A DNA stretch of 64,000 nucleotides, from assembly GCA_001244265.2 (NCBI GenBank), contig LN717261.1, positions 2,991,591-3,055,590 on the forward strand, in the 5' to 3' direction. Below the pieces are notes generated by a model. The model did no database searches. It saw only the letters and a program-made list of their open reading frames with translations, and had not been told where the DNA came from. The first letter of the stretch is position 1. Every line of letters begins with the position of its first letter. Below are positions 10,702 to 64,000 of this stretch, one piece after another. Source of the DNA: Microbotryum violaceum. Its lineage: Eukaryota. The position numbers and the translations under genes were made by a program.

Positions 10702-10702
10702 C

Positions 10703-20037: not shown

Positions 20038-24557
<4,520 letters not shown>

Positions 24558-24707: not shown

Positions 24708-29225
<4,518 letters not shown>

Positions 29226-35809: not shown

Positions 35810-40782
<4,973 letters not shown>

Positions 40783-43700: not shown

Positions 43701-46700
43701 GCAAGCCAATGAGTTTGTAATCAAGTAGATATTGCAATAAAGGAGTTCTTCACACACCTGAACGAGTTGGCGGCAGTGGCAAGCCAATGAGTTCGTAATC
43801 AAGTGGACAAGAAGGAAAGACGCGATTGGCCCGCCCGGCTAATACAAATAGAGACGCGCGCTAGGCGGATTTAAGGCAAGAGTAATCTACCTCAACACAA
43901 GAAAGGACCGCGGAGAGATCTACCGGACCTTTTCACCGATTGGCTAGACCCCAATACCAGATTGGTGCGGCAGTAGTCGGATCGCTTTGACGAACTGACT
44001 TTGGCCGAGGGACCAGTCCAACTCCTGCGAAGCAGAGCCAAGCGGAAAACTGAAGTCGAAGATCAGCTTCGGGGTGTAGTTCTTCCCATATTTAAAATGA
44101 GACAAGCGCAGGCCCAAGACATTTGGGCGACAGATGGCTCACTCATTGTCCCGCCCACGGGATTCGCTTCCGCGGCCGCAGCAGTTGTAGGACCGAATTG
44201 GGAAGCCCAGGCAGCTTTGTTCGCGGGCGCGTCAATTATGCAAGCGGAAGTGACAGCCCTGATTATGGCAGCACTGACTATACAATCTTACAATTTCGGG
44301 GCTACTACACCAATTCCGGTTCTCACAGATCATCTGACATCGGTCAGATTTGCCGAGAAGATCAGGCAGGGCGATGTTGCACCGAAGAAACCGAGGGCTG
44401 CGTTTGCACACTACACATGGCTCGAACGTTTACTCGCAACAAACCACACGATCGAAATCCAACATGTGAAAGCTCATACGGGACGGACAGACGACGCATC
44501 GCGTGCAAATGAAAGGGCGGATGAAGCGGCTAAGAAGGGACATTCACAGCCTGACCTCATTGTGCCTTTCCGCCGACTTCGCTCTCCCGCAGTGGACGAT
44601 CGCTAGAATGACCGCCAACAACATCGAATGGCTGGAAGGCGATATCAACAAGAAGATTTACGACCTTCAAGAAGACTGGCAGCTGAAGTCGTTGCCAAAG
44701 AAGACAGGCGACAGTGTTCGACTCCTATTGAATGTCGGACATTCAGCGGGGCAGTACCCATATCTTCGCGCAGTGTCAACGTATGCCGCACAGACACAGC
44801 TCCAAATGCGGGCACATGTTCTGCCCACTGCTTCGCGATGTTCAGAGAGACTGGGGACCTCACCGGAGTGTGTGATATGTGGAGCAGAGGAAGAAACAGA
44901 GAAACATGCGTTTGGAGAGTGCCCATCGGGACAAGAACTTCGCGACAAAATTGGTCAGGAACTGTATCGGGCTACGCGAAGCGAACTCGAGGCACGGCAA
45001 CAAGGATGGACTGACCTGCAGATACAGGAGCTATGTATCTTTGCTGCCAAACTGGTGAGGGCACATTTGTGGTGGTTTGCGACGCCAATGATACCCAAAC
45101 CGGATATCTACTGGACTCTAGACGAGCGATCGCGGACGCGGCTGGACCGGGCATGGCATCATGAGCTGATCAAAGGGGCTGGGAGAATTTGGGGCGGCCG
45201 CATGCGAAAGTGGTGGACATTCCAACAGAATATGGAGTAGTATACCTCACTGGTGGAGGCGATGGTGGCAAGCTTGCCCCATCTACCCTCAGGAGCCGGG
45301 AGCCGAGGGGGAGGAGGGAAAACTGGTGTAAACCCTGAGAAATGGGGGCATCAGGCCTAATCCCGGCGAGGCAATGGCCCATATACAATATGGGTGTATG
45401 ATATGACATGTTATGGTGGTCCAGCGGATCTAGCGTTTGTTAGATTCTGTCTTTGAATAAGACTAGCTGGAATTTATGACTTTAAACATTTAAACTGGAT
45501 GGGCGGTCGCAAGGGTTACTCGTCTCTGAACTCCTAAGACGGACCGGATCCGGTTTGCAACAATGGGGAGTTGATCTGCCTTAGGATGGTAAGAAGCTTG
45601 AAACTCACAGCGAGTCCGGGACCAAAGAAGGCCCGGGGTTAGCGGTTTTCTCCTGCAGTGCCGTAGACCGCCACAATGGAGGGAGAATGATACGTGCGGC
45701 AACTCACCAATGGGGCCAAAGTTCTACGCTTTTCACGTTTTCTGCTACGTCGAGGAGTAGGGGATGACGGGCGCTTGCGAGGAAGTGGCTGCTGATGTGG
45801 ACAGACGCGACGGCCAGCGGGTCAGCATCGATGACTTGTGCACCAATCTCACCGGGATTCGAAAATTGGAAGAACGTGGAAACTACTTACGTTGTTGTGG
45901 AGGTGGGGCATTCTAGGGTTACGATGTCGGTCCTTGGAAAGCTGAAGGTAATGTGGCAGGCGATGTGGCAAGAGGGAGACCCACAGGGCCACAGGAGTGG
46001 AACTTTCGAGAACGTTTAAGTCCCGTGAGACACTGCACAGCACTGGACGGTTGAGGACGGGTGCAACAGGGGCGACGGGCGGTGCAATCTCTTTTTCAAG
46101 GCCCACGCTGCGCGCAAAGAAGGTCAATAAATTTTTAGCGGTTAATGTAAGTTCTCCTTCTATTACAAACCTACTGCTCATTGCTGCTTCCTGTCCTTTT
46201 TTTCTGACGCACTGACGGGCCGAAGTTCGCATCCCCGACGGTGGGTCCCTCAAGCACGCGGGTCGAAGTGGGATACCAGTAGACAAGACTTGGGTATCGG
46301 ATCAGAAAAAAATACAAGAAGGTGACACATGGAGTGCAGCCCACCTGAGACGATTGAGACCGTGCAGTGGCTTGAGAAGAGCCGCCTGGGTCCGAGCAGC
46401 CAGATTTTCGACCATAGTCGGTGAGGTCACTGCGGTATCGTATTTCATGGGCTGCATGCTGTTGGCCTTGAGACCGGGCTTCTGCTGTTGGTTTATTATC
46501 GTTTGAACGAAATGGCCCTGTCACTGACCTTCTTGGTATTTAATTTTTTTGATCGGAGCACCTCTGTCGCGTCGCTACTCTCGTCGCGGTGAAGGCAGAA
46601 CGAGAGCCGAAGTCCCCGCCCATGTGGAAAACTGCTGGCTAGGGATCCATAAGAAATCCGGAATTATAACCCTCTTCTCCCCAAATCCCATATTCCGGGT

Positions 46701-46930
46701 GCATGAGAAAACACAACAGACGACCGATACATGTTCTGAGGTCTTGTATAACCTTTTCATCCATGACATTTGCTGACAAGTTGATGTTGTCATGCTTTGC
46801 AAACTATAAGGAATCCAGCAGGAAAACACCGAGTTTCTAAGATGGTCAACCATATGGCGCCGCTACGGATTGTAGACATGAGAATTCCGCACGATTGGGG
46901 CGGTAGAGGTGCTGGGGGGTGCGCTTGAGT

Positions 46931-48998
46931 CTTGGGCGCGAGGGTAGCGCTGTACCAAGGGCTACCATGGGCCTGCTCGAGCGCCCGCTGCTGGGCGCCC
47001 CGCGGCTCGACCCTCCTCTTCGTCCCGCTCCGATCAACAGAATCAGACCCGGCGCGTCATGACAACAATTCAACCGATCTTGGCATTGCGACACGTATAC
47101 GAGCCCGCCGTGCAGCTGTGCAGAACGGACAGCGTGGTCAGCGCGATGGCCAACTCGACGCTGGGCTCGCCCACCACCACTCTCCTCCGCAAAGGCGAGT
47201 GCGCCGGGCTCGAATCGCGCTGAAACCCCTCAAGCCCACGTTTCGATCCGCGACGACCTCGGCCCCCAGACGGCCGTGTGCACCCACTGCAAGGCTCGGC
47301 ACTGGGAGTGCGAAAGGTCCAAGTCGACCAGACACTTCAGCGCGTGCTGCTCGCAAGGCAAGGTGCGGCTACCTCGCCCTCCCAGCCCAATCTCGAGTAT
47401 CGGCAGCTTCTTCAAGGCTCGGATAGCGGTCAGTTGCTCCGTCCAACAACGTTCGTCTGCAGTAGACCCACATGCTGAACTGTCTACCCACCCACACAGA
47501 AGCTAAAGCATTCGCGAGAATGCCCGGTCGTACAACAACGCTTGTCGTTCACTTCGCTCGCTGCCCTCTGGGACCAAACTCAAGTGGGCACGCTAGGACC
47601 CCCCGTGTTTCGCGTGTTTGGCCGCCTCTATCATCGACTCGGTGCCCTGATCCCTGCCGTGAATCAACGCCCAGCCTTTGCCCAGACATGGCTGATCGAC
47701 CCGGCCGAGGCCACCGACACACGACTTCAAGGACCCGACAGCGCAGACAGTCACATGCAACGATCTACTTTGACCAAGCTCGAGTCCATGTTGCGCACCG
47801 GCAATCGCTTTGTGAGTGAGTTCGCATCGGCCAAAGCCCGCGCGGGTTGGGATACGGCCAAAGAGTGGGTCCTGCGCCTCTGCCTACCACCAGGCCGAGA
47901 CCGACGCACCCACAACCTTCCTACGTCGAGCACGGAAATGGCGATGCTTATCTGCGATTCCGACACCAACACGGGAGATCGTGGACGTCAAGACCTTATT
48001 CTCCAGGTGCACGGTGATCGATGTCCCGAGGGTCGGCCCAAGTACCAAGTCGTTAGCTCGCTCCATCCGTCTGCGATGCCTCTCCGTTACCCACTACTTT
48101 TTCCTGCAGGGGAAGATGGCTTCCACCCCAACATTCCTCTTTGCGGGGTTCCACCAAGCCAGGCCGCCAATTGCCAGAAACTGAGAGCAGATCGACAATG
48201 GTTTCCAGTTGCGCGAGGTACTTGCCGGTCTCGGTCTGGATGACGAAGACGAACAGGAGGACGAAGACCGCGACAATGAGGATGAAGACGGCGAGGAAGG
48301 GGACGAAGAGGATGGTGATGGCGAACGTACGCGTCTTCGGCTCTTTCTCTGATGTTCCATTCTGTCTAAGGCGCAAGCACAGACTGACATTGAACTTTTG
48401 AACACCTAGGACAAAGGTCCAGTAAAGGGGTCGAGGTGGCGAGTCTCGCGTTCACAATTCTTTGCGCACTACTTGCCAAACGCGACGAGCACTTCTCAAT
48501 CCCGCATTGCACCCAGCGTCCCTTCCTGGAGTTCGTGAATTACGGATGTACTCCCAAGTCAAGACCGATTGACTCAACACATCCGGTTACATCAAGAGAA
48601 CCTACGCCTCACCACGACCCAAGGCATCAACGGCTTGACCCCGAACCAAATCGCGACATCACGCAGCGATACCAGGATGCGATGGCGTGCGTTGTCAAAG
48701 ATGGGAAGCCTCCGCTGCTCATCAAGATGACGTACGACCCCGACTCACCGGAAATAAAGGCTGCACTGGGCCGATAAAGCATGCAACCGTACGGATCTCA
48801 TTGCACGAGTGTTTGAAGCCAAGTCCGGCAACAAGCGACATGCAGGCTGTTTCGGCAATGAATGTAAGATGAATGGATTTTGTTTCTTTGCTGTATTTCG
48901 TATTGTCTTAACCTCTGCGCTGATATCATGTAGACTGTTCGATTATCCTGCTATTCTTTGAATTTCATCCTCCCGTTAATTTAACGGGTTCCCACTGG
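46931..48998 (+). mobile_element. Non-autonomous Helitron, 5'-truncated copy of 11712-13773
   Basis: Same Rep remnants. Perfect hairpin CCCGTTAA-T-TTAACGGG (48972-48988), then CTGG (48995-48998) followed by T. Confidence 0.9.
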
Positions 48999-49552
48999 TA
49001 AGGATATAGTTTTAAGGATAGCCAGAGGTGGCCAGCAGTTGGCCCGCGGCGCGCGCCTACTGAGCCCAGACCGCCGCTGATACGTGCTCGGCCATCGGCC
49101 AAGCAGGGGACGACCAGGGAGGTGCGAGGTCGGGGTACATCGATTTGTACCACATCCAGAACGTACCTCCAAGATCTGGAGTGCTATTTCCTCCGATTTG
49201 TACCACTTTTGAGTCGCAGTTTGGGGTTCGGAGGGTCCGATTTGTACATTTTCGGGGACGCACATTGGGCTGAGCTTTCCCGGGTCCTGGCGCGACAGGG
49301 CGCGACCATTGAAGACCTTAAGGCTAATTTTCGCTCGGATACTCTCGTATGACTCAGTAAACGGCACCGGGACCCAAGTGGCGAGTATGGCTAATCTTTC
49401 GCAGATTGTTATCATTATGTTCGAGAATCAATTTGACAAAAGAACTGCACGCCCAGATTGGCCTGGGGGTGGAGGAATCAGAAGGACGCCATGGCGTGCT
49501 AGAGCACAACAGCGAGGCTGAGAGGTCAAGCCTAAAAGTGGTTGGCGAAGAG

Positions 49553-51267
49553 TTATGCCTCGTCGGGGCCCTTGAACTTGTACGACGCTTCATGCTGTGG
49601 CTCGTGCTTGGTCATGGCCACCAGCTTGTGGTCTGTGGCAAATAGTGAGCGTCGTTCGAAGAACCGTCAGTGAATATGCCCAGTCCCAAACAAGACTGCC
49701 ACGCGACTGACAATCGGGATCATCCTCGACGACGTCAAACAGACGTGTCTCGAAAGGTTTGCCGGCTGCGGCCTCGTCCTTGCGCTTTTGCCTCTCCGAG
49801 TTCTATGAGCGTAAGAGCTGAACGAGTAAGCACAGAAGTCGGTCACGCCGCGACGAAGTAGCCTCGCTCGGACTCACTTCGATGCGACTCTTGGCAGCGG
49901 ATGCCGTGTCAAAGTCGCCTATACCATCAGATCTCAAGGATCGGTTAACGGACTGGGCTAGAAAGAGGACGCACGCTGTGAGCAGACACGTCACCAGTCG
50001 ACGCACCTTTCCGAATCCCATCGGCGACCTCCTTCCACGCTCGGCGACTCTCATACTCGCTCTGCTCGCTAATGGGCTTAACCTCGATGGGTGACCGATC
50101 GGGTGCCGTGTCGAGGAAGAGTTCGCCGATTCGCGACTTGGAACCTTTGATGAAGTGACTCTCGCCGGTCCACAGACCATCGATGACGTACACCGTGTGA
50201 CCCGCGTTGGTCACGGTCGCAGTGAATGCGTGCGCCTTGCCCGAGACCCATCCCTTGCCTCGGAATTCGAGCGAGGTCTGGTACCCGGTCGAAGACTGGA
50301 TGAGCGACGAATCATACAGCTCGACGTAGGGCGAACCGAGAAGAATGCCTTCGATCTTGAGCTTGGGCAAGGTGATAAGGTACTGCTCGACATTGCCGTC
50401 GGCGAGTTTGATGCGCACGATACCATGGCCGACTTGCCTTACGCTGATGGCGCGGCCGGAGAACGACGTCTTTTGGGCGCAGTTGCCCTCGAAGCTGAGG
50501 CCCTTGCTCTCGTTCTCGAGGTAGTACGCCGTCACGGGCGGGTGGTGCGAGACCTGTTCGGCCCACAACTTAAGCTCTCCACCGTTCCATTGGCCGATGA
50601 ATTGTTCGCCTGTACACGAAATCGCCGGTCTTGACGTCAGTCGGGGAGAGCGCCAGGAGGCAGATTAGCAGACCCACCCAGGAAAGGGTTGAGCGGCTTC
50701 TTCTCGGTACCGGTCTCCTTCTCACGCCTGGTGAATTGGCCGGGGCAGGTCGAGAGGAACCAAGCCGTGACGGCGAGATGGCGAGCCTCGGGCGTCTTGG
50801 CTTCGGCGATGGCGGCAAACTGTTGGGTCGGTTCACCCCAGTAGCTGTGTGTGACATGCATAAATGTGTCAGGCCAGCTGCAATCTAGTCGGAGCGAGGG
50901 GGAACCTGAGAGCCCATCGATAGTCGCCAGAAGCGAGGCGGGAACTTGCAAGGCCCGACGTGGGGAGTTGGCTGAGCACCACTTGGGGAACTTACGAAGG
51001 GAACTCGCACAACGACGTCGGCGAGAGGATAAACGGAGGAGCAGTCATGGAAGACAAATCGCCCGTCGCTATCGGGAAAAGGAGGTAGAGTAAGTGTGTG
51101 TCCGACCAAGTCAGCCAGAGCAACGACGGCGAGGCCATCGCCTTGCCGAGCGACTCGGGATCGCGCCTATCGCGATACCGGGAGCTGGACTGACCACTGG
51201 CGATGGACTTGAGGAAGGAGCTCCATGAAGACTTCTGGGCCGCGGGCAATGCTTCACCTTCGGACAC
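49553..51267 (-). CDS. KES1: Oxysterol-binding protein, KES1/OSH4 type, multi-exon
   Basis: [48 protein letters not shown], the EQVSHHPP signature, [49 protein letters not shown]. Inferred stop at 49553. Start codon not resolved. Confidence 0.92.
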
Positions 51268-51607
51268 TGCGATGATGCGGAGCGCAGCGGAGGCCAGGCG
51301 ACCGAGTGGTGCCGTGGTGCGACAGGGCGACCGATCGGACACGACGATGAACGATGACGCGATGACGGCGGACGAATGGGAACGGGAACGAGAACGACAG
51401 TGGCGGCGGCGGGGAGGTGGCGCACATGCAATACAAAGGAGGTCAGAACTCAACGTCAGCAAGAGTTGAGGTGGTAACCTGTGCCGCAACACCCGACAGA
51501 CTGACTGATGGTGCAAAAGATGTGTGTAATGGGGCGTAAGAACCGTAAACAGTCCCTGTCGCGGGTCTGAGAGCTGGGCCAGCCCAGGCCCGGTTCAACT
51601 GTTGAGT

Positions 51608-52900
51608 AGGACCCCCGAAAGCCCAGCCGGAGGGCAAGACTTTGGACCCGGTTGTTTCGCGATGCTCGCGCTTGAACAAGTCACTTGGTACTAGCCATCT
51701 TTGGTAATCACTTGAGTTAAGTGGCTGTGAGGGATTAGGCCGATTCGATATTGAAGGGGCGCAGGTTCCGTTCCGCTTCACTTCGGTCCGAGATTGGAGC
51801 ATAGCACGACAACATCATCCCATGCAGGCCTGCTATTTGAACGATGCCTTCGATTGATTATCGCCGCTCACCAACATGAACATGACGATCGCCGAGCTCC
51901 TCGCCTTCGATGTCGCTCCCGCCGACGCGTCTCTTCACATCGAGTTGTCCAAAGACGAGCTCACGCACTACTCGACCTTATCATCTACTCGAGGCCATTG
52001 AGAAGGCAAACAGCTTCTCACGAACAATCGTCTACCAAGCTCAACTATTCAAATTTTGGTCTAAGCTCACGCGTGTTTGGTTCTACACAGCCCACACACT
52101 TGAAACTTCAACTGCGCCTCAAGTTGTCGATGCTCGTGATACCAATTTCTCGCTGAACTGGCCAACCTGATTGCCCATCAAGCTGCTCATAAGTGTAGCC
52201 ACCTCAAGCTGTTCTACTCAAGGGAGGCCGATGGGATCGAGCGACCCAAGTCGCGGAGAGGCAGGCGTAGGGGTTAGCAATACAGAGGAAGGACGCAGTA
52301 CAGCACATTCATGCGTCTTGAAAGGGTTGGTACAGTCCATGGGACCATCTCGCTGCGAAGACATGGCGGGCACGACGAGGAGCTTGAACGAGATTCAGAA
52401 GAACGCCTATATTGAGGATGGCCGCATTCAAGTGAGTTGTTGCTGAATTTAGGAACGAAGGCAACTGGATCTAATGTTTTGCCGGTCCTATACTTTTAGG
52501 AAAAGCTCCCTGAGAGAGACAAGCAGTATGGAGCGCTAGCACAACGCTATCCTCATTTTGGATCGCTTGACGGAGCTGTAACCGCTGCCACACCATTGGA
52601 GATTAGATCTCTGATCTGCTTTGGCCTCAAGTGTGGCATGCATTCACTCAGCTGCGATCAAACTGTTTATGGAGAAGAAGCGCTGTCTATCGGAATTGGT
52701 ACGCGCGTTGTTTTGAGTGACAGTTGAGGAAGTTCTCGTTTGACACAAGTATTGTGTCCTACAGTGCGACACATCTACAGCAGAGTGACAACAAACCACT
52801 GCAACCAAGACACGCTCCACCTCGTTGGTTCTACTCTCAAATGTCGTCGTACAGGAGCTTCGCCTCATCAAGAAAACATGCTATTCCACACACCTCATTG
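51608..52900 (+). mobile_element. Unclassified putative TIR element, copy A (degenerate, intron-containing coding remnant)
   Basis: Starts with the 21-mer AGGACCCCCGAAAGCCCAGCC, also found at 63310. An exon at ~52500-52700 reads KQYGALAQRYPHFGSLDGAVTAATPLEIRSLICFGLK..GEEALSIGIG, homologous to 63706-63987(-). Right end not found. Confidence 0.55.
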
Positions 52901-55559
52901 ATGGCACTATGCCGTTCCGCATGATTGATGGTCGACAGGTCATCGAGTCATTAGGCCCGTCAACGACTACATATCGTTCAACCACGGACCTTACCTCATG
53001 TTACCCGGACGAGCGCCTAATCAGCACGAGCGCACATGCCGAGCAAAGATTTGCCGCCCTCCGGAGCGTGCCCGGCTTGCGAGATGCCGCCGGCAGAACC
53101 TCTATAAGCCGTCACCTTTTCGGCAAAGCTGTTCGACCTAGACCCGGGCACATTGGCTGTTTTGTGAGATTCATTCCCCGTAAGATCGGCCTCGACTGTT
53201 GCTTTGCGGTCGGGCTGCTTGACGGCTTGCCACTGAGATATGAAGCAAAAGAGAGGGATTAAGCTGAAACCTAGGGTTGAGGGCGTGTCACCCAAACACG
53301 TACCAACACGCGCCACCAGCACACATGCTCGTCAGTGATTGTGACTTCGAGGTTTTTGTACTACGACTTCATTGTTTTTCCCAACAATAAAGAGTCGCCC
53401 TGGGCGCGCTTAATCTGAGCGCGAGCCGACGGTCAGAAGGCGTGGCGCAGCGGCGTGCAAGGCTGATGTCAATAGGCAGGCCCGGACGTGGACACCACGC
53501 CGCTTACATGATCATCGAGCTCAAGATCGGCCTTGCATTAGCGCACTCGAAAGGTGGCGCATTAGAACCTTGTAGAAAGCTCGATGCTTGACGTCGCTTT
53601 CTGATACCAACCCGCCTTAGCGTAGTGCAGCCTACAATGAGTGCAGCCTGAGTCAGCGCACAGCCCAGCACAGCACCCGAGAACATAGTTCACCTACCGC
53701 GAACAAGGTGCAGCACCGTGGTGCTTGCAGAGGAATGGCGTGGAAACGAAGATCTTGGCTGACCCCACATCGGACTGGCACAGTCATGAACACAGCCCGG
53801 TCAGTAGGAGCTTATGGGCGAGACCGAAAGAACATCCACTAACCTTGATGTTGTCCAGAGAGGGAGCGGTGAGCACGTCGACCAGTCGGGCAAGCTGGAT
53901 TTCCACACGTTCCAACCGAGCGCCGATCGTCGCGGCCGAAACAGATGGGCCATCTTGGCCAGATGCCGCGTTTGGGGGCTGTGGGTGTTTGTGGTGAGTG
54001 CAGTCAGCGGAGTGGGGCACGACGCGGGGGCGCATCTGCACCAGCTCACGTTGCTCGGGCCGTCAAAATATGGCGTAGAGTACTGGGGTTTAGAATGCAT
54101 GACCTGGTTGGATTATGCGCGTTGGTCAGCGTGTCACCAGGATGTTTCGGCTGACGTCATTGCAGGGGTGCAACGTACTTCGAAAGTCTTGTCCTCTGTT
54201 CCCTCAGTGTCCGAAACAGCCAAGGACATATCGGTGCGCTGACGCTTGCGCGGCTTGTCGCCCATCGCCCACGTCACCGTCGTCGTCGTCGTCGTCATCG
54301 CCGTCAGTTAGCTGTCCAGATTGGCAACGATACCTTATCAGCACCCATAACTCCTCGACCAGGGGACGCGGGACGCGGGCACGAACGAAGAAAGCGTCCT
54401 GGACTACGGCCTTTGATTCGGACTTCAGGGTGGTGAAATTTTGGAGTTGGTTTAAGCTAGGGTGACGCGGAAGCCGGACAAGCAGGTTCAGTACTCACTC
54501 GGGCTGGTCGCTTGTCGTTGCGGCGAGGTGTGGTTGGGGCTTGATGCGATTTAGCTGACGTCGTCGAGCTCTGCGGATTGGACAGACGTGGGAGTGCCAT
54601 GCATCAGCTCGAACCGGCGAAAGATGAGTGTCTGCTTCTCCTCCCAAGCCTTACGTGAGAATCCAAGGTGGCAAGCGCCGCAGTTGTCGACACCGGATGG
54701 TCGTGTCGTTTGTCACTAGTCAATGACTGCACATGCGGCATCTAGGGACCGTCAGTAGCTGAGGCTGGGCCGACGTCGCGTCGGCAGCGGTGAGTTGCAG
54801 CACATACCTGTGACTCGTGAAGCGCCTTGGGCAAATGGAGGTGGGTGGGTCCCGAATGAGGGTCGTCTGCGGGGCCTGGCGACACGACGACCCTCGACGT
54901 CCACGACTGCGTCGTGGACGTCGTCAGGGGTTTGGCGGTGTGTGGGCTGACGCCCGAGCCTGACGCGCCCGAGGGTTTGTTCACCGGTGCGGCGGCGACG
55001 TCTCGGGGCTTCCTGTCTCTAGTTTGTACAAGGTTCGTCGAGTCCTTGAGCGGATCTCCGGTGGCCGTAAAGGTCGCGGGAGGCGAGTACGCGGTCCCTG
55101 CGGTGGAGGTGGTGGTCAGCTCTCGGTCTGTGCAGCCACGTCGCATCAAGCTCGAATCTGAAGGAGCAGTGGAGTGGGCGGGTCATGGAGTCGACGCATG
55201 AAGCGGGTCAGGGCGTACCATGTCGGCGATGATGGTAACACAGGGCTGCTCCTGCTTGGCGACAGGTGGTGGCCGGGAGCTAAGGCCAGCGCCACGTCTC
55301 GCGCGGTCTGACCGAGGGCGGGACACAAAAAGACGCACTCGGGACGCTGGACGATCTGACGTCGTCTGACCCCCACTGCCCCCGTCAGGGCACTTTAGGG
55401 CAGTGAGAGCGCCCCACCGTGCCACTTCCTGCTCATCCCAGGCCAGGGTCGACCGTCCGTATGCACGGTCCCAAAGCGTTCGAGATGCTTACTTACTTGG
55501 TATTATGGTTCACTCGTACGGTCTTGTTTTTCGCACGATCAATGACACGTGCGAACTGT

Positions 55560-56895
55560 CTCACTGCATGCGGCTGATCGCTGCTCGTTTTGGATCAAAT
55601 TCTTCCTCGCCCAGCACCTCGGACTCGACGGCGTTGACGACCGCAGGGCCGCAGGAGAAGGAATCTGATTGCTGGGCCATCGAAGCCAGAGTAAATTCGT
55701 CTACTGGTATCCACTCGTAGTACGCCGAGCAGTGCCTCCAGTGCCTCGAGCACGAGAGCGTCTACCTTCGGCGGAGCCGTACCATGTTGAAGCGAATCGT
55801 AAAGAGTCCAGGACCTTCCTTGAATATCCACTCGCACCATGAACCAGTGACTATGATGGCAGATCGGGAGGAACCAAATCGTCTCCGGATTGTTCTCAAT
55901 GTAGTCGGCCATAGCCGACAGACCCGTGTAGGGCAGATGAAAATCTCTGACAAGCGCGGATTCGAATTGATAAGGTTCTAGCGACGTCTTGATGATCGGG
56001 GCGGCGAGAGCAGTCGAAAGGTAGTCCGACGGGATGAGGCCGTAAACCTGGGATTCGTCTCGTTCACTTGGTTTTGACGACGCTTCGATGACGCAAGCGA
56101 TGAGGAAATTAACAACACTTTCGCCTAACCAATTGTTACCTGATGAAGAAAGGGGCCCAAAGTACGGAAAGTGGTGAGAAGGTGATGAGATGGTGTCGGG
56201 AAGAGATGGGTAATTTGCCAATGGGGAAAGACTTGTGCACGAGTTACATGAGCAGAAGAGAACTCACTGAGCATTCCAATAAGGCTCTCGTAGGTGACCA
56301 GGCTGCAGTCAAAGCCCCAAAACGAGTCCCGCCATGGGAGGCTCAATAGCCCAACCTCCAGTTGCTTCTTCATATCGCGGTCCTTATCACGACACGCATG
56401 GAATCTAGCTATCCGTTTGACGGTGGCTCGGAGTAGACCTTGAGCTTTCTTGGCCTTGTCGAGGTCGTTCCAGATTTGTGTTGTGCCGAGAGCTAGTCGA
56501 TGCTCACCGACTGCAAGCGATCGGCCCTTGTAGGCTTGGGATCGAGCTGCACTAGAGAGCGCATCACGGACTTTCTTGGACGGGTAAGGAAAGCTCAATT
56601 CGTTCTCGAGTCGTCGTGGAATGTCCATTGATATCTGAACCCCGAGGTGGTCATCGCTGGAGGGCAGCTGCGCGTCCATGAGGAGCTTCGCACTCGTCAG
56701 GTGCGCGATCGGCGACCAGCTCTCGGAGTCGAGGTCGCCATCCTTTGTCTGCGTGGGATGGTCATCGTCGGATAGGAAAAACTCGGTCGGGGTCATGTTC
56801 ACCGTGCACGAAGCTGGCAGCGCATGGGAGGAGAATGAATTGCGACGCACTGAAGGTCGAGCGAATGCGATCAGCGCACCCACACGCCCCCACAA
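55560..56895 (-). pseudogene. Ulp1-like (C48) SUMO-protease-fold gene, frameshifted, transposon-associated
   Basis: NWLGESVVNFL, FLPICHHSHWFMV (His) and LYDSL (Asp); in a shifted frame after ~55730, QQSDSFSCGPAVVNAVE (Cys). Confidence 0.75.
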
Positions 56896-57635
56896 ACTCC
56901 CCGCAATCTCCTCGCTGCCAGACTTTCAGGACCGCCAGGCCGGGCAGTTCCTGCCTTGTAGCCTTGGCGGTCCTGACCAATATTTCGGGTACCGTAATCT
57001 TTTGTCCGAGCGACACGCGCCTTCCCCGACCTTACCAGAAGTACTCCATGAGACATCGTTAAAACACGCGTGATATATTGCAGGCGGGTCCGTATCATCA
57101 AGTCTACGAGCACCGGATACTCGCAGGTTGTCCTCGAGCAGATGCAATGCGCCGGGGGGTCGGCTTGGCATCGCCGTCGGAGCCGTTCCCGATGTCGAAT
57201 GCCACGTCTCAGGTTTGACCGTTGGTGGACTGTACACCGTCAAACATCAGCGGACGGGACTTCGACAGTCGACAGTCTTACCCTGGGCGGGGCCGCGACG
57301 ATCGCAAGATCGTGCGAGAGGGGCAACTCACCAACTGGTTCTCGAAATCGTTCTCAATCAGTGCAGCAGCACCCGTGAAATCGCACACGTCGCTCATATC
57401 GCTGCCGGTCTGTGAGTGCAGCCACAAGTTCAGCGCATGCAAATATTGACAACCCAGTCCTACGTACATCCGCCCCCTCTTCAGAACCCTTCGCGCATTC
57501 TTCTTGTTCGTCGACGGTGGCCAATGGAGTAGGCTCCTGATGAACGGGCAACGTCAGCCAGGTGGTCGACAAACTCTGCACCGAAAAGGAGAAAACTGAG
57601 GCTCACCTTCGCGTCTCCCTTTCCCTTTCCCTTGC

Positions 57636-60600
57636 CTATGACCTCTTTCCTTTGCCCTTGACCTTGCCCCTGTCCTCCTCCCCATTCTCATCCACCGACT
57701 CGGCGGCAGCCAAGAGCGCCTGCGCCGTCGGGGATGCTAGAAGTGCACGAACAAAAACCTCCGTTGGGACCTGCTGCTTAATCGGGGGCGGAAGGCGGCC
57801 AGCTCGTCGAAGGAACGATGTATGATAGTACTGAGCAGAAACTCGTCGGTGTCCTTGTGCGTGGTGCGTACGGGAAGCGGATCGACGGTGTTCATCCAGC
57901 CTCCCGAGTGGATGCAGTTGTGTTGAACGACCGCGAGAGCAACGACATTCTGCGTAGTTCACACGGCCGAGTGCGCTCCAGTCCATCGGTACTGACGCAG
58001 ACTTACCGAGATACCCCGACACATGCTCACCTCGATAGAGACAACGATCCGGTCGAGGCCTCGGGACAGTGTGCGAAACCCCGTGGACGCCAACTCCTCC
58101 CCTATCCTTCCTAGGCGAAAGCCCACCAAGCCCTGCCTTCGTCCTGTCGCGGACTCTCGCGCCAGTAATTCGATGACTTGTCCAACCAGAACCTGCAGCG
58201 ATTGGGGTAACGGATGTAGATTAGTATCGTCCCCCTATCGTCCCCCCACCACCACGACCACAAGTGCAGATGGAAGTGGCGCACCGGGTTGTGCCCATCA
58301 GATCTGAACAAACACCAATCTTGCGGATGCACAGGGTCGCCATTGGGTAGTATCGCCAGCTTGGCCTTTCGCCATCGAGCATCTCTCGGGATGTCCGGCG
58401 AGCCGCGCCCCGGTAAGGAGAAGCAAACAGTTTTGGCGAGTTGGGTAGCATCCGACAGAAAGGGACTCCCCGCAGCGAATTTGTATCGGACTGCGATCGC
58501 CAACGTCCATCAGCCTACCAGCGAACGTTTGAATGTCCCAAGCACACGGCAAACAGTCTTACCCGCTGAAGGATCCTGACGAGGCGCGTCGCTTTCCACA
58601 AGCAGCCACTCACGCATAGCAGGCTTGTCCTCGAGGAGCCGTCTTGCCGCCGGGCCCATGCTTACTCGGTTTCCATCCTTCTTCCACGTTCCACCGCGAG
58701 TGATAAAGCCGACACGCTCTGTGTCGCCCAACTTGCGAGCAATGTCTTGTGAAACATCGAAATGGTTTGTCCGCATACTATGCTGACGTATGACTTTGTT
58801 GGCCGATTCAGCTAGAGACGCATCGAACAAGCAGGGGGACCGAACATTCGAATAGCATGAACAAGATTGGCCAGAGCATGATACTTGGACTTGTTGAGGA
58901 CGTGGGACAGGTTGCGTCGCATGGACGCTTGTAGCAGGTTGTTGACAAGGTGCTCGCACGCTGTCTGTGCGATCGGGAGGCGCTGGCTCAACATCCAATC
59001 ACAACTGAAGGTAAGCAGACAGAAAAGAAACTCACAGCGTATGTGTCGATGTCCGCGACGTTCGCTGTATGCAGATGATGCCCCAACTTGCCGATTGCCC
59101 CCCAGCACTCGTTCAAAGCCGAAGGCATCAACTCTAAATCGAACAGGAGTTGCGCCACCAAGGGCATCACTTGTGCGAGTGTGACAAAGTCGTAGCCCAC
59201 TAGCGATCCTTGATAGTCAATGAGATGATCGGTAGCAATTCCTCCCGGCAGACCGACCGGCGACATCGAGGACATGATCGCACGCAGTGACAAATGGCCC
59301 CGACGACCTTTCTTCAACTCGTCCACATCGAGTGTTGCCTTCCCCGCGTATTTGACTATGCCCAGAAAGAAGACATGCAGTATGTCCGGCGGCATATGCT
59401 TGTGCGGGTCAAACACTGTGACTAACACAACTCTCCTTGTCACCACCCGGGCGGATATAGCCCAGAGAGGCCCGAGGCTGAACTCACATGGAACATCGAA
59501 GAACGGGCCGACGTAATCTCCCCGCTCCAACATCTCGGCCTTCGCCTTCCTAACTGCTTCGCTTCCTCGCGCTCGGTTCTCCATTCTGACCCGATCCTTG
59601 CCAGAAGTGTTTATGGCGCGGAATGCGAGCACTTCGGCGTTTGCGCCCTTGTCACCGAAGGTCCTGTGTGTCATCTCCTTTTGAAAAATAACGGCGAGTT
59701 CTGCGAGGCAACGCTTTGTCCATACATCATGGGTACCGGTTGAAGTCTGCTGCTCAGAGACATTCACCATGACCAGTTCATTCGCGTAGGTCTCAAGCTG
59801 CTCTAGGGCCTGGTCACGGATTGTTTCGGCGTCCAATAGGCCCGGGCACTGAGATGCGGCAACGGCGGCAAATCAGCTTCACTGAAAGAGCAGCAAGCAA
59901 CAGTACGCACCTCGAAAAACGTCATCATCTGATCCACTGTCAGTCTCGTCTTCAACGCCCCCCCCCCCCTTCCCCCCACGGGCAGTGTAAGCAGGGATAC
60001 CAGCCGCGGGCCTGCGCTGCGCACTCGGCTGCCATAGGTGAGTCGTGAATCGAGCACAGCAAGGGCGTCCGCACAAGAACCTCTTCGCCTGCTGCGATGC
60101 TGTAACACTGCATCGGTCGATCTCCAAGAGTGTCCCTACATCTCGTCCCGCACAATCAATAACACGGGGTGGCAATTACTGGCAGGCGTCGACCATGGGG
60201 CTCACGAGATTGCAGTCAGCACGAATTCTGCAAGATCAAGGGCACCCATGTCGGTGCCAGTCACGCCGGTATGGTGCAGCATGAATCGCCGTTTGATGAC
60301 GGAAGCAGGAAGAGCTAAGTTCTGGACGGATGCCTGCGGACAGCACGACAAGCAGTGAGTCAGATGCCGCCTTCTCGTCGGCCGCAGTGGATTTGCCTCA
60401 CAGTATACATGGGGTTCCAGCGGCTGGACTCGGTCGCCGCCATATCGTCCAGGAAGAGGCGCAGAGGGGTGACGAGTAGCAACTCCCCGTTCGCTAGAGC
60501 CCGATCCACCGACCGCAGGGGTAGCGAGCGTCGAATCTCGTTCGTGGCTGGATCGCAAACGTCTGGCGCTCGGTGCTGAGAGTTGCGAGCACACAGCGGT

Positions 60601-62338
60601 GGTCCGCGAGCCGCGGCACATGGAATGCGGACCCACCAATTCTGACGCAGAGACGCATTTGTTCGACCTCGAGTACGGGCCGTTCGAACCGCTCGACAGG
60701 AACTACACACCAGCTTGAAGCGCAGAGTGTCGGCCAATCCTTCGCAGGACGCCCGAAAGCGGGAAGTTTCACTTCAATGCTTGAAGGAGCCGACACTGTC
60801 GCCAGGCACACGAAAGCGACGATCTCGTCGCGGAGGGATGCGAAACGAGCTACGAACCAGTGCATATCGGGCACACCTTTGATCACCACAATCTCGTCAA
60901 CGAAGTAGTCGACTTTATCGACGCGCGCCACGGGGGCCGAGAAGCGGGCCGAGAGGTCACTCAGCCAGCGACGGGTGTGGTAGGCAGAGTTCACATTCGA
61001 CGGCTTGAGATCCGGGTAGTGATGCATAAGAGGGGCGACGGCAGGGCTCGCAAAGTGCTGCACGCGGTCATTGTGGTCGGCGGGGAGAAAACAATCAGCG
61101 CCGGGCAGACAGCAAGCGGTGACTGCACCGAATCGATACGCACCGCAGCCACGTAATTTTGAGGAGACAGAACATGAAGAACCCGGCCCTTTTCTTTCGT
61201 ATGCCGAGTAGGGGTATACAGCGGCACCTCATTCTGTAGGTTATGCAGGAACTTTTTGACGGTCGACGCAGCTGGTAGATTGCGTAGCCCCAACGCTGTT
61301 GCGAGGTCAAGCACGTTGTCCAATTCTCTGACGCCAATCCGGCGATTGGGCGATCGAAGGAAACCGACAATTGTCATCATCTACGGCCAAAAGATGTCAA
61401 CGTACTGCTGCGCGTAAAGCGTGGGAACCATGGCGATTTGTCGCACCTTTTCGCTTGGAAAAGGATACCAGGGGTGGGAGGGAGCGGGCACAGCCGAGTA
61501 ATTGCGCACTCCTTCGCGGTCGCATGCCGGGAGTCTGTCTGATGTAACAATCGAGCCTACTCAGGCAGGGTCAGTACTGAGCTAAACACATGGAACCGAC
61601 GCCTGCACCGCCAACCCTTCCGCCTCGACCTGCTGGTCGTCGCTGTCAGCGCCGTTGTGGACAGGTTGGGGAGCAACCTCGGCGTCGTTGTCGTGCATAG
61701 GGACATCTCCGAGAGGGGAAGGGGATCCACCAAACTCGAGATCGAAGTCATTGTGTCGGGGAGTATGTTGCGTGTCGTGGCCGGGTGAGGAGGGACCAGA
61801 AACAGAGACAGGCTGCGAGACCTGAGACTAGCTCGAGACAAAGGTCAATCACCCTGCGCTCGGAATTGGACCGTCCGCTGCTGCAGATGACGACCTACCA
61901 TTGCCGTACCGAATGTGGGCTCTTCGATATCTGCCCAGTCCATCTCGTCGTCGTCGCGCGGAGTGGTGGGGATCGAGATAGCGGCCAGCGGTCGGATCGG
62001 GATCCGAAGGTGGGATTGGCCTTCAGGACGGCCCGCAGATGCCTCTTGGTGGTGGCGTGCCGAACCACACGACTCCTCGGCATACGTTCCCCGCCACAAT
62101 ATAGACACACATAGCCCATACATGAGCGTTGAGGAGCCGAGCAAAGGTCGAACTCTGCGAATGATGACGCCCTCGTAGTGTTAACGACCGAATGTGTGGG
62201 ACGGTTGTCAGTCCACTGTTGGCCAGAACTGGAACTGCGCCTCAAACAATACCCACCACGGTCGAGAACATCTTCGGACGCCTTTGTTCGAGGAGACATG
62301 ACGTGGCCGTCGCGTTTGTGGGCACAATGGTTGCCCAC
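57636..62338 (-). mobile_element. Large multi-exon CMC/CACTA-like (Plavaka-related) putative transposase
   Basis: N-terminal CLYC..H..TKRH finger, HPWYPFPS, PLRLFLDDMAATESSRWN, DSPMAAECA..PCLHC, FDPHKHMPPDILHVFFLGIVKY (DxLH..LG) and VVQHNC. GT..AG introns separate the blocks. Superfamily assignment is by recalled motifs. Confidence 0.65.
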
Positions 62339-63129
62339 TTATTCTGGGGCGGGGTGAGGGAATCGGAGAGAGGGTGGGGGCCCCCATGCTTCTCAGTCGG
62401 GTCTTCGCGCGCTGAGCGCTCAGAGCGCTCAGATGTCATCAGATCTCAGATCTCTGCTCCGAGACTCTCACCGGCGCACGCCAGCCTGCTGAGCAGACTT
62501 CAGCTGGCCGCGTGAGGGTGCAGTCTCGACTCATGGCACTGACTCGCTATTGATTACTCGCTGCCTCAGCTGGTACAAATGGACTTTGGACTCTATAAAG
62601 CGCGAGCCCTGAAATGTTTCAGCGACCGTGGGATACACTCTCTGCATCGATATGGCTCGGAACAGCGACCGCTCGCGACGTCACGTGCCACTTTTCGGAT
62701 GCAGTGACACGCAATTTCCCTATCGGACAAAACTAATGCTACCATACACCAGGTGGAATAAACCCATACGGCCTACCTCCAGGTTCCGTACACGTAAAAC
62801 ATTACCGATCCCGTCTCTTGTGCACTTTAGTGCTCACTTACGTCTCATTGCCGAATGCAATAAGGGTTGAATCTTTACCGCGGCCGCAAAGGCCGTTTTT
62901 ACGCTAGCTGTACCGCACGCGTAGGGTCACCGCAAACCGGCGCCCCTACGGACCTGATAACCTAATGTCCATACGGGTACTAGAACGACCCCCTAAGGCA
63001 GCCATAAAAAAGCTTTGCTCTTACAGGAGCTCTATAAAACCGCCTTTCCTAAATTGCAACACCTCCGTAGAGAAGACATACGGGCGGGTCCTGCCACAGG
63101 AAATCCATAAAGTTCGGGCGCGCATGTGT

Positions 63130-63280
63130 AACTCAAGTGCGCGAACTCAAGTGCGCTAACTCGGGCGCTCGACTGCGCCAACTCAAGTGCGCTAACTCAA
63201 TTGCGCCAACTCAATTTGGCGCGCGCGAGTTAGCGTTGGCGCAATTGAGTTAGCGCAAGCGCACCCCCAGCACCGGTACC
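63130..63280. repeat. Second AACTCAAGTGCGC array with the same terminal CAGCACCGGTACC
   Basis: Near-identical to ~10584-10701, with one extra inverted unit. Confidence 0.9.
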
Positions 63281-63309
63281 GCCCCGGCTTTGTGGTGTCC
63301 TCTCGTGTC

Positions 63310-64000
63310 AGGACCCCCGAAAGCCCAGCCTGAGGCGCGTAGGTAAAATCCGCCAAAATCCCCGATTTTGGACCTCATTTGTCCACTAATTTTTGGATGT
63401 TTCGGCCAAAAAGGTCCCCAAAATGTCCAGTCTATCTACGCGCCTCGAAAAATAGCTCTAGAATTGCTTCAAATGCTCTAAAACATCTTCAAAAATCGCG
63501 AAAACGCCGTCCGGACGTTTTTCGCCCGGACCGAATCGCCGGAGCCCGCGCGCGCGTCAGCCGTTTCGGTTCTGCTTCGCCGAGGGCTCCTCACCTGCAC
63601 TTACTGCCTACCTCTTTGACTATGATTTAACGTGGCCATGGTATACATGTAACGTACAACGAGAGGCAAGCTCGATTGCAGTCACTCTGCGAAGCAGTAA
63701 GCTAGCTACCGTGAGGTGTACGAACCAAGTCCAATCGACAGTTGTTCTTCTCCTATGTTGCTGGCACAACTGGCATGTATTATGCCTCGTTTCAACACAA
63801 AGCAGACAAGAGAGCCGATTTTCAAAGGCGTAGCTGACGTGACGTTTCCGTCGATCGACCCAAACGGTGGGATCTTGGCGAATGCCGTGTATTGCCTTGC
63901 TCGCAATTGCATCCGTATCTGGGCAAGAATGGATATTATTGATGAGCACTCCCTGGGCCATATGTGCAGAGCACAATTGCAGCTCACGTCTTTGCGTCTG
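63310..64000 (-). mobile_element. Unclassified putative TIR element, copy B (3' end; runs off the window)
   Basis: 21-mer at 63310-63330. ORF 63706-63987(-) RQYTAFAKIPPFGSIDGNVTSATPLKIGSLVCFVLK..GEEQLSIGLG aligns with copy A. Confidence 0.55.

What the first reader, a model, noticed from the sequence alone, without database searches (positions are those of the whole stretch)
51608..64000. Candidate undescribed DNA-transposon family: shared 21-bp terminus plus a homologous unknown protein in opposite orientations
Seen: AGGACCCCCGAAAGCCCAGCC (then xGAGG) at 51608 and 63310 in the same orientation. The adjacent coding remnants are homologous (QY.A.A...FGS.DG.VT.ATPL.I.SL.CF.LK..GEE.LSIG.G) but on opposite strands, so the motif sits at the 5' end of one copy and inverted at the 3' end of the other, as expected of a TIR. 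I cannot assign the protein to any family.
Basis: partly seen in the sequence, partly recalled or inferred. Interest (0 to 1): 0.7.

Follow-up and report, generated by a model that had tools for sequence, protein, structure and literature searches.

The report
Fungal P-like transposon ends, deleted copies
The repeated 21-base motif is the terminal inverted repeat of a cut-and-paste transposon family of the anther-smut fungus Microbotryum, and the "unknown protein" is the tail of its large transposase, which resembles the fruit-fly P element enzyme and carries a SUMO-type protease at its front.

Summary
The 21-mer is exact at 51608 and 63310, and the flanking coding pieces are 52% identical on opposite strands. 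Their codons show purifying selection.

The window is Microbotryum DNA. A profile search found full-length relatives of 1,375-1,765 aa.

- Copy 1 (51608-53111) is an internally deleted, frameshifted, 3'-cut derivative.
- Copy 2 (63310-64000+) is the 3' end of a second, old subfamily. Its native stop codon lies about 227 bp before the inverted motif.
- The motif marks a repeat/single-copy boundary at 49288 and is compatible with one at 51608.
- Three gene models from other loci read through the motif: forward upstream of the ORF (P0003, P0032), and inverted just after the last exon (P0037). In P0037, copia sequence starts at the next residue.

So the TIR reading is supported. I saw no complete element and no target-site duplication.

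The transposase looks like P element/THAP9 by language-model features and predicted fold only. Pfam and PDB profiles miss it, and my own models failed.

The scan noted this element type before on other DNA of this genome. I rate it a new variant of a known kind, of moderate interest.

The parts
51608..51633 (+). Left (5') terminal repeat of copy 1: the 21-mer plus GGAGG, possibly starting one base earlier (T at 51607)
   Evidence: Exact match. To the left lies single-copy DNA: X6 contig 49262-51708 at depth 62 and X5 contig 50093-51662. Homology to P0032 starts at 51609.
51608..53111 (+). Copy 1: internally deleted, frameshifted, 3'-truncated non-autonomous copy of subfamily 1
   Evidence: P0030 residues 13-98 map to 51654-51980 and residues 1322-1628 map to 51958-53088, so about 1,220 residues are missing. 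Depth is 24-53 times that of single-copy bins. Other copies run on differently after 53111 (X5 loose end). Stops and a frameshift near 52790-52800 are seen in the reading frames.
52500..52698 (+).
   Evidence: The intron before it (52432-52499, GT..AG) is spliced out in 2 contigs of run X15, shown by a loose end at 52432 that runs on as the start of this exon.
63310..63335 (+). Right (3') terminal repeat of copy 2. The gene is on the minus strand, so the motif is inverted relative to it. C at 63309 may belong to it.
63310..64000 (-). Copy 2: 3' part of a subfamily-2 element that runs off the window end, with a small internal deletion
   Evidence: P0033 residues 1188-1269 map to 63921-63610, and its last 46 residues up to the stop map to 63697-63560. 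AFEAILELFFEAR of P0014 is 13/13 identical at 63476-63438. Depth is about 37-41 times single copy.
49001..49289 (-). End piece of a third repeat carrying a variant terminus (AGGACCCGGGAAAGCTCAGCC at 49288-49268), cut at 49000 by a Helitron-like element
   Evidence: 18/21 match. Single-copy contigs of 3 runs (X1, X5, X6) all begin at 49262, about 30 bases (roughly a word length, assumed) before the motif's outer end. X15 contigs from other loci match only about 49257-49289.
63281..63301 (-). Degenerate inverted copy of the motif (15/21; 13/16 outside the neighbouring repeat), 8 bp from the exact copy. It may be the end of a neighbouring related element, or chance.
62937..63301 (.). High-copy repeat with 14-bp tandem units and a 35-bp-arm palindrome. 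Not part of the P-like copies. The left limit is approximate.
   Evidence: Also present at 10458-10707.
53112..55359 (.). Low-copy (about 3-7 times) unclassified repeat, continued at 62228 to about 62937
   Evidence: Depth and the joint 55359->62228. No Pfam family at or above its curated cut-off in the 13 ORFs scanned; 2 weak sub-threshold matches at E 0.04 and 0.098.
55360..62227 (-). Single-copy 6.87-kb piece with a separate Ulp1-like gene (about 55564-56796) and a TNP2/KDZ-like transposase gene (about 57332-62299). Unrelated to the P-like family except through the Ulp1 module.

Best explanation
The 21-mer, probably 22-27 bp as YAGGACCCCCGAAAGCCCAGCC.GAGG, is the terminal inverted repeat of a cut-and-paste DNA transposon family confined, as far as the searches reach, to Microbotryum. 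Autonomous members encode one large protein. From N to C it has an acidic N-terminal region, a Ulp1/C48 SUMO-type protease domain, a Cys-rich segment, an RNase-H-type DDE core, and a long C-terminal region. The core carries candidate motifs LHV(D/E)DT, SISADG, RDEKH..K..R and GTEMVEHFFGGLR. The core most likely belongs to the P element/THAP9 superfamily. The window holds only defective copies. Copy 1 kept both coding ends and lost about 1,220 codons in the middle, as internally deleted P elements do; it then lost its 3' end at 53111. Copy 2 is the 3' end of a second subfamily. The two subfamilies are old, with synonymous sites saturated, yet they carry the identical 21-mer, as expected if the transposase must recognise and cut it. 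Shown here: the motif, the homology, selection on the frame, the full-length architecture, the internal deletion, and the end position of the motif. Inferred: the transposition mechanism, superfamily membership, TSD length, and present activity.
For: (1) The motif is exact twice and 18/21 once, with 0 of 100 shuffles matching.
(2) It marks an end. Single-copy contigs of X1, X5 and X6 all start at 49262, about 30 bases (roughly a word length, assumed) before the outer end of the 49288 copy. Left of 51608 lies one single-copy contig, and right of it the depth is 24-53 times higher.
(3) A profile search gave 8 long proteins. Seven hold the family's C-terminal domain, and P0030-P0034 reach 1,375-1,765 aa. 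C48 was found in 5 of 7 aligned members and matched PDB 6dg4 at E 2.8e-7.
(4) Copy 1 maps to P0030 residues 13-98 plus 1322-1628. Copy 2 maps to the C-terminal part of P0033 including its last residues before the stop.
(5) Of 38 stored proteins, 3 contain a translation of the motif. P0003 (RTPESPAGG) and P0032 (SGPPKAQPEA) read it forward, upstream of the ORF start. P0037 (AGLSGVL) reads it inverted, 8 residues after the last-exon sequence ...RKRSER. In P0037, copia pol homology begins at the very next residue, 78 (E 9e-77).
(6) pN 0.33 against pS 0.77 between the two subfamilies.
(7) In the Atlas, P0036 scores 0.96-0.90 by features against clusters carrying PF21787, PF21788, PF21789 or PF12017. 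All ten best named hits share that family. Predicted-fold TM is 0.46-0.61 over 400-600 residues, including THAP9 clusters.
(8) Run X15 holds spliced transcripts of the family.
Against: No element with both ends was seen, and no TSD. None of the six flank 8-mers recurs beside another terminus. The three outside loci are known only as peptides. They fit the 21-mer but cannot prove its bases. Pfam gives no TNP-like or THAP match even at E 10 (0 of 7 members). A profile against PDB sequences finds only Ulp1-type proteases and no P element transposase at E up to 10. My AlphaFold models were unusable (pLDDT 42 and 33). The P assignment therefore rests on one lead-grade source plus an earlier unverified note. 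The six residues before the motif in P0032 (WPTLES) resemble 63293-63309 (WCPLVS), which could mean that shared sequence runs a little beyond the motif there. Left of 63310 the DNA is also repetitive, so depth cannot place that end. The runs laid may be the window's own strain.
Confidence: 0.8

Rival explanations
1. Same anatomy (a TIR cut-and-paste family with deleted copies), but the transposase is not a P/THAP9 member. It would belong to another RNase-H superfamily with an insertion domain (hAT, Kolobok, MULE-like) or to a lineage of its own.
For: No Pfam TNP-like hit at E up to 10. No PDB sequence hit to P transposase. There is no THAP domain. The D-D spacing of 122 residues is longer than the 73 and 70 residues of the P element and THAP9 (passages of PMC8230255). 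The Atlas warns that a third of shuffled proteins also get ten concordant hits.
Against: The first Atlas score of 0.96 with 211 shared features is reached by about 1 in 100 shuffled proteins, by the tool's own figures. The fold search also lands on THAP9 and P clusters with names that pass its bar. The second D to E spacing is about 245 residues, close to the 228 and 239 of P and THAP9.
Confidence: 0.2
2. The 21-mer is a conserved subterminal block, such as a binding site or promoter piece, and the true element ends lie further out.
For: P0032's flank resembles 63293-63309 (3 of 6 residues). A degenerate inverted copy sits 8 bp outside 63310.
Against: At 49288 and 51608 the outside is single-copy DNA. 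In P0037 copia coding sequence starts at the next residue. The flanks of 51608, 63310, 49288, P0003 and P0037 are otherwise unrelated.
Confidence: 0.07
3. The motif is unrelated to transposon ends. It would be a chance repeat, a piece of the neighbouring Helitron-like or tandem-repeat element, or a small RNA gene.
For: It lies 35-40 bp from another repeat's end at 63275. A 14/15 look-alike sits inside an unrelated exon at 60746.
Against: 0 of 100 shuffles give any match. There is no Rfam or tRNA hit in the window. The motif keeps a fixed place relative to the transposase ORF in the window and in 3 other loci.
Confidence: 0.03

Closest known systems
Drosophila P element and its internally deleted non-autonomous derivatives; zebrafish Pdre/THAP9 elements (passages of PMC7776569 and PMC8230255 read)
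   Same: A cut-and-paste element with short perfect TIRs (31 bp in P, 13 bp in zebrafish). Many internally deleted copies keep both ends. There is a DDE core with a large insertion between the second D and the E.
   Different: No THAP domain; the review states THAP is absent from fungi. An N-terminal Ulp1/C48 protease is present instead. The protein is about twice as long. The TIR sequence is unrelated, the D-D spacing is longer, and the 8-bp TSD and GTP dependence are untested.
P-superfamily entries from fungi in RepBase ('Only Pucciniales & Allomyces', 17 references, 11 copies with domain, 'single occurrences'; Table 1 of PMC5751038, passages read)
   Same: The same subphylum as the rusts (Pucciniomycotina, from my own knowledge) and the same proposed superfamily.
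   Different: The genus Microbotryum is not named in that paper's main text (0 occurrences). Their detection used Pfam domains, which this protein does not match. Here there are tens of copies, not single occurrences. I could not see the RepBase sequences.
Transposons carrying Ulp1/C48 protease modules: plant KI-MULEs/C48-MULEs and CACTA elements (recalled), and in this window a MULE-like array and a TNP2/KDZ-like element
   Same: A SUMO-protease-type domain is carried by a DNA transposon. The Ulp1 gene at 55564-56796 is about 34% identical to the N-terminal third of the P-like protein.
   Different: In those elements the partner transposase is of Mutator or CACTA type. Here the protease is fused in one ORF to a P-like core.
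Earlier notes of this scan: e1-7176048 (same genome, another piece: P-type transposon with Ulp1 and AGG termini) and e1-7240197 (another genome: AGG termini, 8-bp TSD)
   Same: The same architecture and the same first three terminal bases (AGG).
   Different: Those notes are on other DNA and are unverified. I saw no sequences from them, so identity of the family is not shown.

Membership tests
P element / THAP9 (P superfamily) transposons | RNase-H-like DDE catalytic domain with a large insertion (GTP-binding) domain between beta5 and alpha4 | tested here: inconclusive
   Candidate D, D and E lie in invariant motifs, at about residues 525, 647 and 890-893 of P0033. Atlas features score 0.96-0.90 and fold TM is 0.46-0.61 to PF21787/PF21788/PF21789/PF22824 clusters. 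But Pfam gives no such hit at E up to 10 (0 of 7), the PDB profile finds no P transposase, and my own models have pLDDT 33-42.
P element / THAP9 (P superfamily) transposons | N-terminal THAP (C2CH) DNA-binding domain | tested here: not met
   No THAP family in the Pfam scans of 7 members. A Ulp1 domain and a Cys-rich segment (CPGS...C..C...H) take its place. THAP is said to be absent from fungi (PMC7776569).
P element / THAP9 (P superfamily) transposons | Terminal inverted repeats at both ends of one element | tested here: inconclusive
   The forward motif lies at the 5' end (window copy 1, P0003, P0032). The inverted motif lies at the 3' end (window copy 2, P0037). This never occurs on one and the same sequenced element, and the outside loci are known only as peptides.
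P element / THAP9 (P superfamily) transposons | 8-bp target-site duplication | tested here: inconclusive
   No complete element is in the window, and none of six flank 8-mers recurs at another terminus. An 8-bp spacer between two back-to-back termini at 63302-63309 is only suggestive.
P element / THAP9 (P superfamily) transposons | Internally deleted non-autonomous copies that keep both ends | tested here: met
   Copy 1 retains P0030 residues 13-98 and 1322-1628. Many short gene models show the same layout.
P element / THAP9 (P superfamily) transposons | GTP requirement and 17-nt staggered cleavage | not testable with these tools
   These are biochemical properties (PMC7776569).
Ulp1 / peptidase C48 | Catalytic domain with His (HW), Asp and Cys (SCG) motifs | tested here: met
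   This applies to the full-length relatives only. PF02902 is above cut-off in P0030, P0031, P0032 and P0034 (4 of 6) and in 5 of 7 members. PDB 6dg4 matches at E 2.8e-7 and 1euv at E 4.5e-4. The SHW and SYSCGP motifs are present. The domain is deleted from both window copies.
Helitron (considered for the motif) | Rep/helicase ORF, a 3' hairpin terminus, and no TIR | tested here: not met
   Helitron_like_N belongs to a different repeat (46928-49000, 11710-13776). That repeat ends at 49000 with its own hairpin and does not carry the motif.
CACTA / KDZ (TNP2-like), considered as the mobilising enzyme | TNP2-type transposase whose element ends match the motif | tested here: not met
   The neighbouring 1,300-aa TNP2-like gene has only weak PF02992 in a paralogue (E 0.032). 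It lies in a different, single-copy piece, and the motif family has its own transposase.

The most novel reading that the evidence does not exclude
This is an undescribed fungal branch of the P/THAP9 superfamily. In it the THAP DNA-binding head has been replaced by an N-terminal Ulp1 SUMO-protease module fused into the transposase. Two ancient subfamilies are held to one identical 21-22-bp TIR, allowing cross-mobilisation. The family is still transcribed and spliced, and so possibly still mobile, in anther-smut fungi. It would then contribute to repeat build-up on their non-recombining chromosomes.
Probability: 0.45. Interest if true: 0.55.

Novelty: new variant of a known kind. Interest (0 to 1): 0.4.

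Why it matters
P-type transposons are listed as rare in fungi: RepBase has them only for rusts and Allomyces, with single occurrences in a 1,730-genome survey that relied on Pfam domains (PMC5751038). This family escapes those Pfam models, so such surveys would miss it, yet it has tens of copies in Microbotryum. A protease fused into a P-like transposase is a pairing I did not find in the listings of four literature searches. It raises a testable question: does SUMO-type deconjugation help transposition or counter host silencing? For genome annotation, the result turns a set of about 20 short 'hypothetical proteins' and several chimeric gene models into recognisable transposon fragments. Examples of chimeric models are a copia fusion and a potassium-transporter fusion. 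The result also gives a terminal motif with which the family can be masked and dated.

Tried and rejected
- **Metagenomes:** the exact 21-mer gave 0 matches. The transposase profile gave 158 pattern matches, none confirmed.
- **RNA genes:** Rfam and tRNA scans of the window found nothing.
- **Pfam on the fragments:** the exon and the short gene models gave no match reaching significance.
- **Atlas on P0010:** no usable hit.
- **Structure prediction:** P0010 (228 aa, 15-row alignment) gave pLDDT 42. P0036 (862 aa, 7 rows) gave pLDDT 33. Both are unusable, so I ran no fold search on them.
- **PDB profile search:** it found only Ulp1-type proteases.
- **Word-based search with the core (P0030 520-1280):** only 6 Microbotryum proteins came back.
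- **Helitron reading of the motif:** rejected. The Helitron-like repeat ends at 49000 and has other termini.
- **GGGGCGGTACC...GCGC block (63243-63275, 10676-10707, 46895-46927) as a Helitron 5' end:** I considered this and dropped it. Helitron copy A runs on past that point.
- **15498 AGGACCCCGGGAA as a further terminus:** rejected, because it lies in a coding exon.
- **A 51608...63301 element:** rejected, because the flanks do not match.
- **Subterminal motif TCCCCGAWWWT:** it occurs only twice in the window, both times 30-60 bp inside a terminus. I derived the pattern from those same sites, so I give it little weight.
- **Proteins dropped from alignments:** P0018, P0022 and P0023 (internally repetitive, weak partial hits).
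- **Earlier scan findings:** look-ups by sequence returned nothing.
Full report
**1. The observation**

The 21-mer AGGACCCCCGAAAGCCCAGCC is exact at 51608 and 63310 on the plus strand. A third copy with 3 mismatches (AGGACCCGGGAAAGCTCAGCC) lies at 49268-49288 on the minus strand. None of 100 dinucleotide shuffles gave a match.

A self-comparison of the window shows that the two exact sites share only 26 bp (25/26). They are followed by GGAGG and TGAGG.

The neighbouring reading frames 52500-52706(+) and 63715-63924(-) are 52% identical over 67 residues, E 1e-20. Over the 67 aligned codons pN is 0.33 and pS is 0.77. Identity is 0.63, 0.70 and 0.36 at codon positions 1, 2 and 3. Synonymous sites are therefore saturated while the protein is kept. 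This is, or was, a real coding frame, and the two copies belong to old, separate lineages.

**2. Organism and setting**

No whole genome is held for this window. The window is eukaryotic and rich in transposons:
- copia elements at 20037-29225 and 35810-40782;
- a Helitron-like repeat at 11710-13776 and 46928-49000.

Protein names returned by the searches place it in Microbotryum. One M. lychnidis-dioicae protein (P0026) is 100% identical on five exons, which lie between 60205 and 61027 and between 58830 and 58964.

**3. What the protein is**

Pfam gives nothing for the exon. An exhaustive search of 1.84 billion representative proteins found only 23 hits at E up to 0.001. The 20 real ones are short gene models of 97-490 aa that fall into two subfamilies. 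I dropped three repetitive hits (P0018, P0022, P0023).

A profile of 15 of these models, searched against longer proteins, found 8 proteins. Among them are P0030 (1,662 aa), P0031, P0032 (1,765 aa), P0034 and P0033 (1,375 aa, subfamily 2), all from Microbotryum.

Their alignment shows one long protein with these parts in order:
- an acidic N-terminal region;
- a Ulp1/C48 protease domain (PF02902 in 5 of 7 members; PDB 6dg4 at E 2.8e-7);
- a Cys-rich segment;
- a conserved core with invariant LHV(D/E)DT, SISADGAA, RDEKH..K..R and, in subfamily 2, GTEMVEHFFGGLR;

The candidate acidic residues lie 122 and about 245 residues apart.

**4. Superfamily**

Pfam finds no transposase family in these proteins even at E 10. 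A profile search of PDB sequences finds only Ulp1-type proteases. My two AlphaFold runs gave pLDDT 42 and 33 and are unusable.

The only positive evidence is the ESM Atlas:
- By language-model features, P0036 (862 aa) scores 0.96 to 0.90 against clusters carrying PF21787, PF21788, PF21789 or PF12017, the P element/THAP9 families. All ten best named hits agree.
- By the Atlas's own model (pTM 0.59), it aligns over 400-600 residues with THAP9 and P transposase clusters at TM 0.46-0.61.

The tool calls these results leads. The two searches within that call count as one source.

The second D to E spacing of about 245 residues is close to the 228 and 239 of the P element and THAP9 (D230/D303/E531 and D304/D374/E613; passages of PMC8230255). 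The first spacing of 122 is longer than their 73 and 70. A resemblance of RDEKHL.K.LR to a P/THAP9 motif is my recollection only.

That note gave me the lead. It is not independent proof. I put P-superfamily membership at about 0.7.

**5. The two window copies**

*Copy 1 (51608-53111, plus strand).* P0030 residues 13-98 map to 51654-51980 and residues 1322-1628 map to 51958-53088. About 1,220 codons are missing, including the protease and the whole catalytic core. This is an internal-deletion derivative. It also has stops, and a frameshift near 52790-52800 that several other gene models share (they end ...RLVGSTLKCRRTGASPHQENMLFHTPH). After 53111 other copies run on into the last exon (X5 loose end; P0001 and P0031 tails), but the window does not. 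The 3' end of copy 1 is therefore absent.

*Copy 2 (63310-64000+, minus strand).* It maps to P0033 residues 1188-1269 at 63921-63610. After a small deletion it maps to the last 46 residues, ending ...EPSAKQNR.G and a stop, at 63697-63560. Its native stop codon thus lies about 227 bp inside the motif.

**6. Is the motif the end of the element?**

Contigs of three DNA runs and one RNA-like run were laid on 46000-64000.
- Single-copy depth in X6 is about 62.
- One X6 contig covers 49262-51708 at that depth.
- Contigs of X1, X5 and X6 all start at 49262, about 30 bases (roughly one word length, which I assume) before the outer end of the 49288 motif.
- The DNA to the left of 49262 is repetitive.
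- Right of 51608 the depth rises to 1,478-3,258.
- From 62828 to 64000 the depth is about 2,300-2,500.

The tool warns that summed depth is not a copy number, so I say only 'tens of copies'.

The X5 contig ends at 51662. That is about a word length past a roughly 95-nt deletion that copy 1 has just inside the motif relative to P0032. This fits unique words spanning that junction.

Two X15 contigs from other loci match only about 49257-49289.

**7. Evidence from other loci**

- P0003 has RTPESPAGG, the forward motif in frame 1.
- P0032 has SGPPKAQPEA, the forward motif in frame 2. Ser can only be TCA here, so the base before AGG is C, as at 63309 and 49289.
- In both, the motif lies about 40-55 codons upstream of the ORF start ALGPFAFASKRAS. 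The sequences before the motif are unrelated to the window's flank.
- P0037 begins with the last exon of the subfamily-1 transposase (...ATFDRPPRARKRSER). Eight residues later it reads AGLSGVL, which is the reverse complement of the motif. From the very next residue (78) it is copia pol (BLASTP to the window's copia starts at query residue 78, E 9e-77; the same start appears).

So subfamily 1 carries the motif forward at its 5' end and inverted at its very 3' end. That is a terminal inverted repeat.

These loci are known only as peptides, so base identity is inferred. No single sequenced element shows both ends. No TSD partner exists in the window.

**8. Further termini and oddities**

The relaxed pattern AGGACNCNNNAAAGC has 7 hits against 1.14 expected, and 0 of 100 shuffles reach 7.
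- One hit is a degenerate inverted copy at 63287-63301. It lies 8 bp from the exact copy and is the end of a repeat with 14-bp tandem units.
- The 8-bp gap equals the P-type TSD length (PMC7776569). This could mean two elements share a target, but that is only a suggestion.
- Another hit, at 60746, lies inside an unrelated exon and is unexplained.

**9. The DNA between the copies**

- 53112-55359 together with 62228 to about 62937 is a low-copy repeat with no Pfam family at or above its curated cut-off in the 13 ORFs scanned.
- 55360-62227 is single copy. Contigs of X6 and X15 join 55359 directly to 62228.
- That single-copy piece carries a 1,300-aa TNP2/KDZ-like transposase gene. The closest relative is P0024, and a paralogue has weak PF02992 at E 0.032.
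- It also carries a separate Ulp1 gene.
- In X15 this region is spliced at 11 GT..AG introns on the minus strand between 57229 and 59911. A poly(A)-type end lies at 57056.

This piece is a different transposon. It is linked to the P-like family only through its Ulp1 module, which is about 34% identical to P0030 residues 38-384.

**10. Mechanism**

*Shown:* the anatomy above.

*Inferred from what is established for cut-and-paste DDE transposases and P elements (PMC7776569 passages):*
- The full-length protein binds the terminal and subterminal sequences, cuts at the TIR, and inserts elsewhere with a short TSD.
- Copies that lost the middle of the gene but kept the ends are moved in trans.
- The identical 21-mer in two lineages with saturated synonymous sites is what such a constraint predicts.
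- The role of the Ulp1 domain is unknown.

**11. Novelty**

P-superfamily elements are listed for fungi only from rusts and Allomyces, as single occurrences (Table 1 of PMC5751038, passages read). Four literature searches did not list a paper on a P-like transposase fused to Ulp1, or on this family (listings only, apart from the passages named). I did not open the supplements of PMC4469406 and PMC5751038, and I could not see RepBase. The same element type was already noted by this scan on other DNA of this genome. I rate it a new variant of a known kind.

Noticed in passing
window 46928-49000 (+), 11710 to about 14400 (-), 1322 to about 2040: A very abundant Helitron-like repeat. Depth is 100-200 times that of single-copy bins. 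It has weak Helitron_like_N matches and a shared 3' terminus with the hairpin CCCGTTAA.TTAACGGG. The copy at 46928 is 5'-truncated and joined to an unrelated 33-bp block.
   Followed up: partly
window 55360-62227: A single-copy 6.87-kb piece with a TNP2/KDZ-like transposase gene and a separate Ulp1 gene. It is spliced and polyadenylated (end at 57056) in run X15. Other genomic copies of the flanks join 55359 directly to 62228, inside the transposase's first exon, so they look like internal-deletion derivatives of this element.
   Followed up: partly
window 55564-56796 (-) versus P0030 residues 38-384: The Ulp1 gene of the TNP2/KDZ-like element is about 34% identical to the N-terminal region plus protease of the P-like transposase. 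This suggests the module was exchanged between unrelated transposons.
   Followed up: partly
window 63130-63275, 10458-10707, 46895-46927: A repeat with about ten 14-bp units (AACTCAAGTGCGCC) and a 35-bp-arm palindrome. It ends in GCGCACCCCCAGCACCGGTACCGCCCC. Its nature is unknown. At 63281-63301 it runs into a degenerate copy of the 21-mer.
   Followed up: partly
window 10703-10983: A 281-bp MITE-like element with 63-bp inverted ends (92% identical).
   Followed up: no
window 20038-24557 and 24708-29225: Two copia copies, 99.9% identical and in inverted orientation, separated by 150 bp.
   Followed up: no
window 14541-20048 (+): An array of plus-strand ORFs with a weak SWIM finger and a weak Ulp1 match. 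It is probably a Mutator-like element with a protease, cut by the copia LTR at 20037.
   Followed up: no
window 60746-60760 (+): AGGACGCCCGAAAGC, 14/15 identical to the start of the TIR and preceded by C. It lies inside a coding exon of the unrelated TNP2-like gene. Unexplained.
   Followed up: no
window 63293-63309 versus P0032 residues 68-73: The six codons outside the motif read WCPLVS in the window and WPTLES in P0032. This may reflect target-site preference, chance, or a few more shared bases.
   Followed up: no
P0035 and P0037 (other loci): Public gene models fuse fragments of this transposon to a potassium-transporter gene (P0035) and to copia pol (P0037). These are annotation chimeras.
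   Followed up: partly
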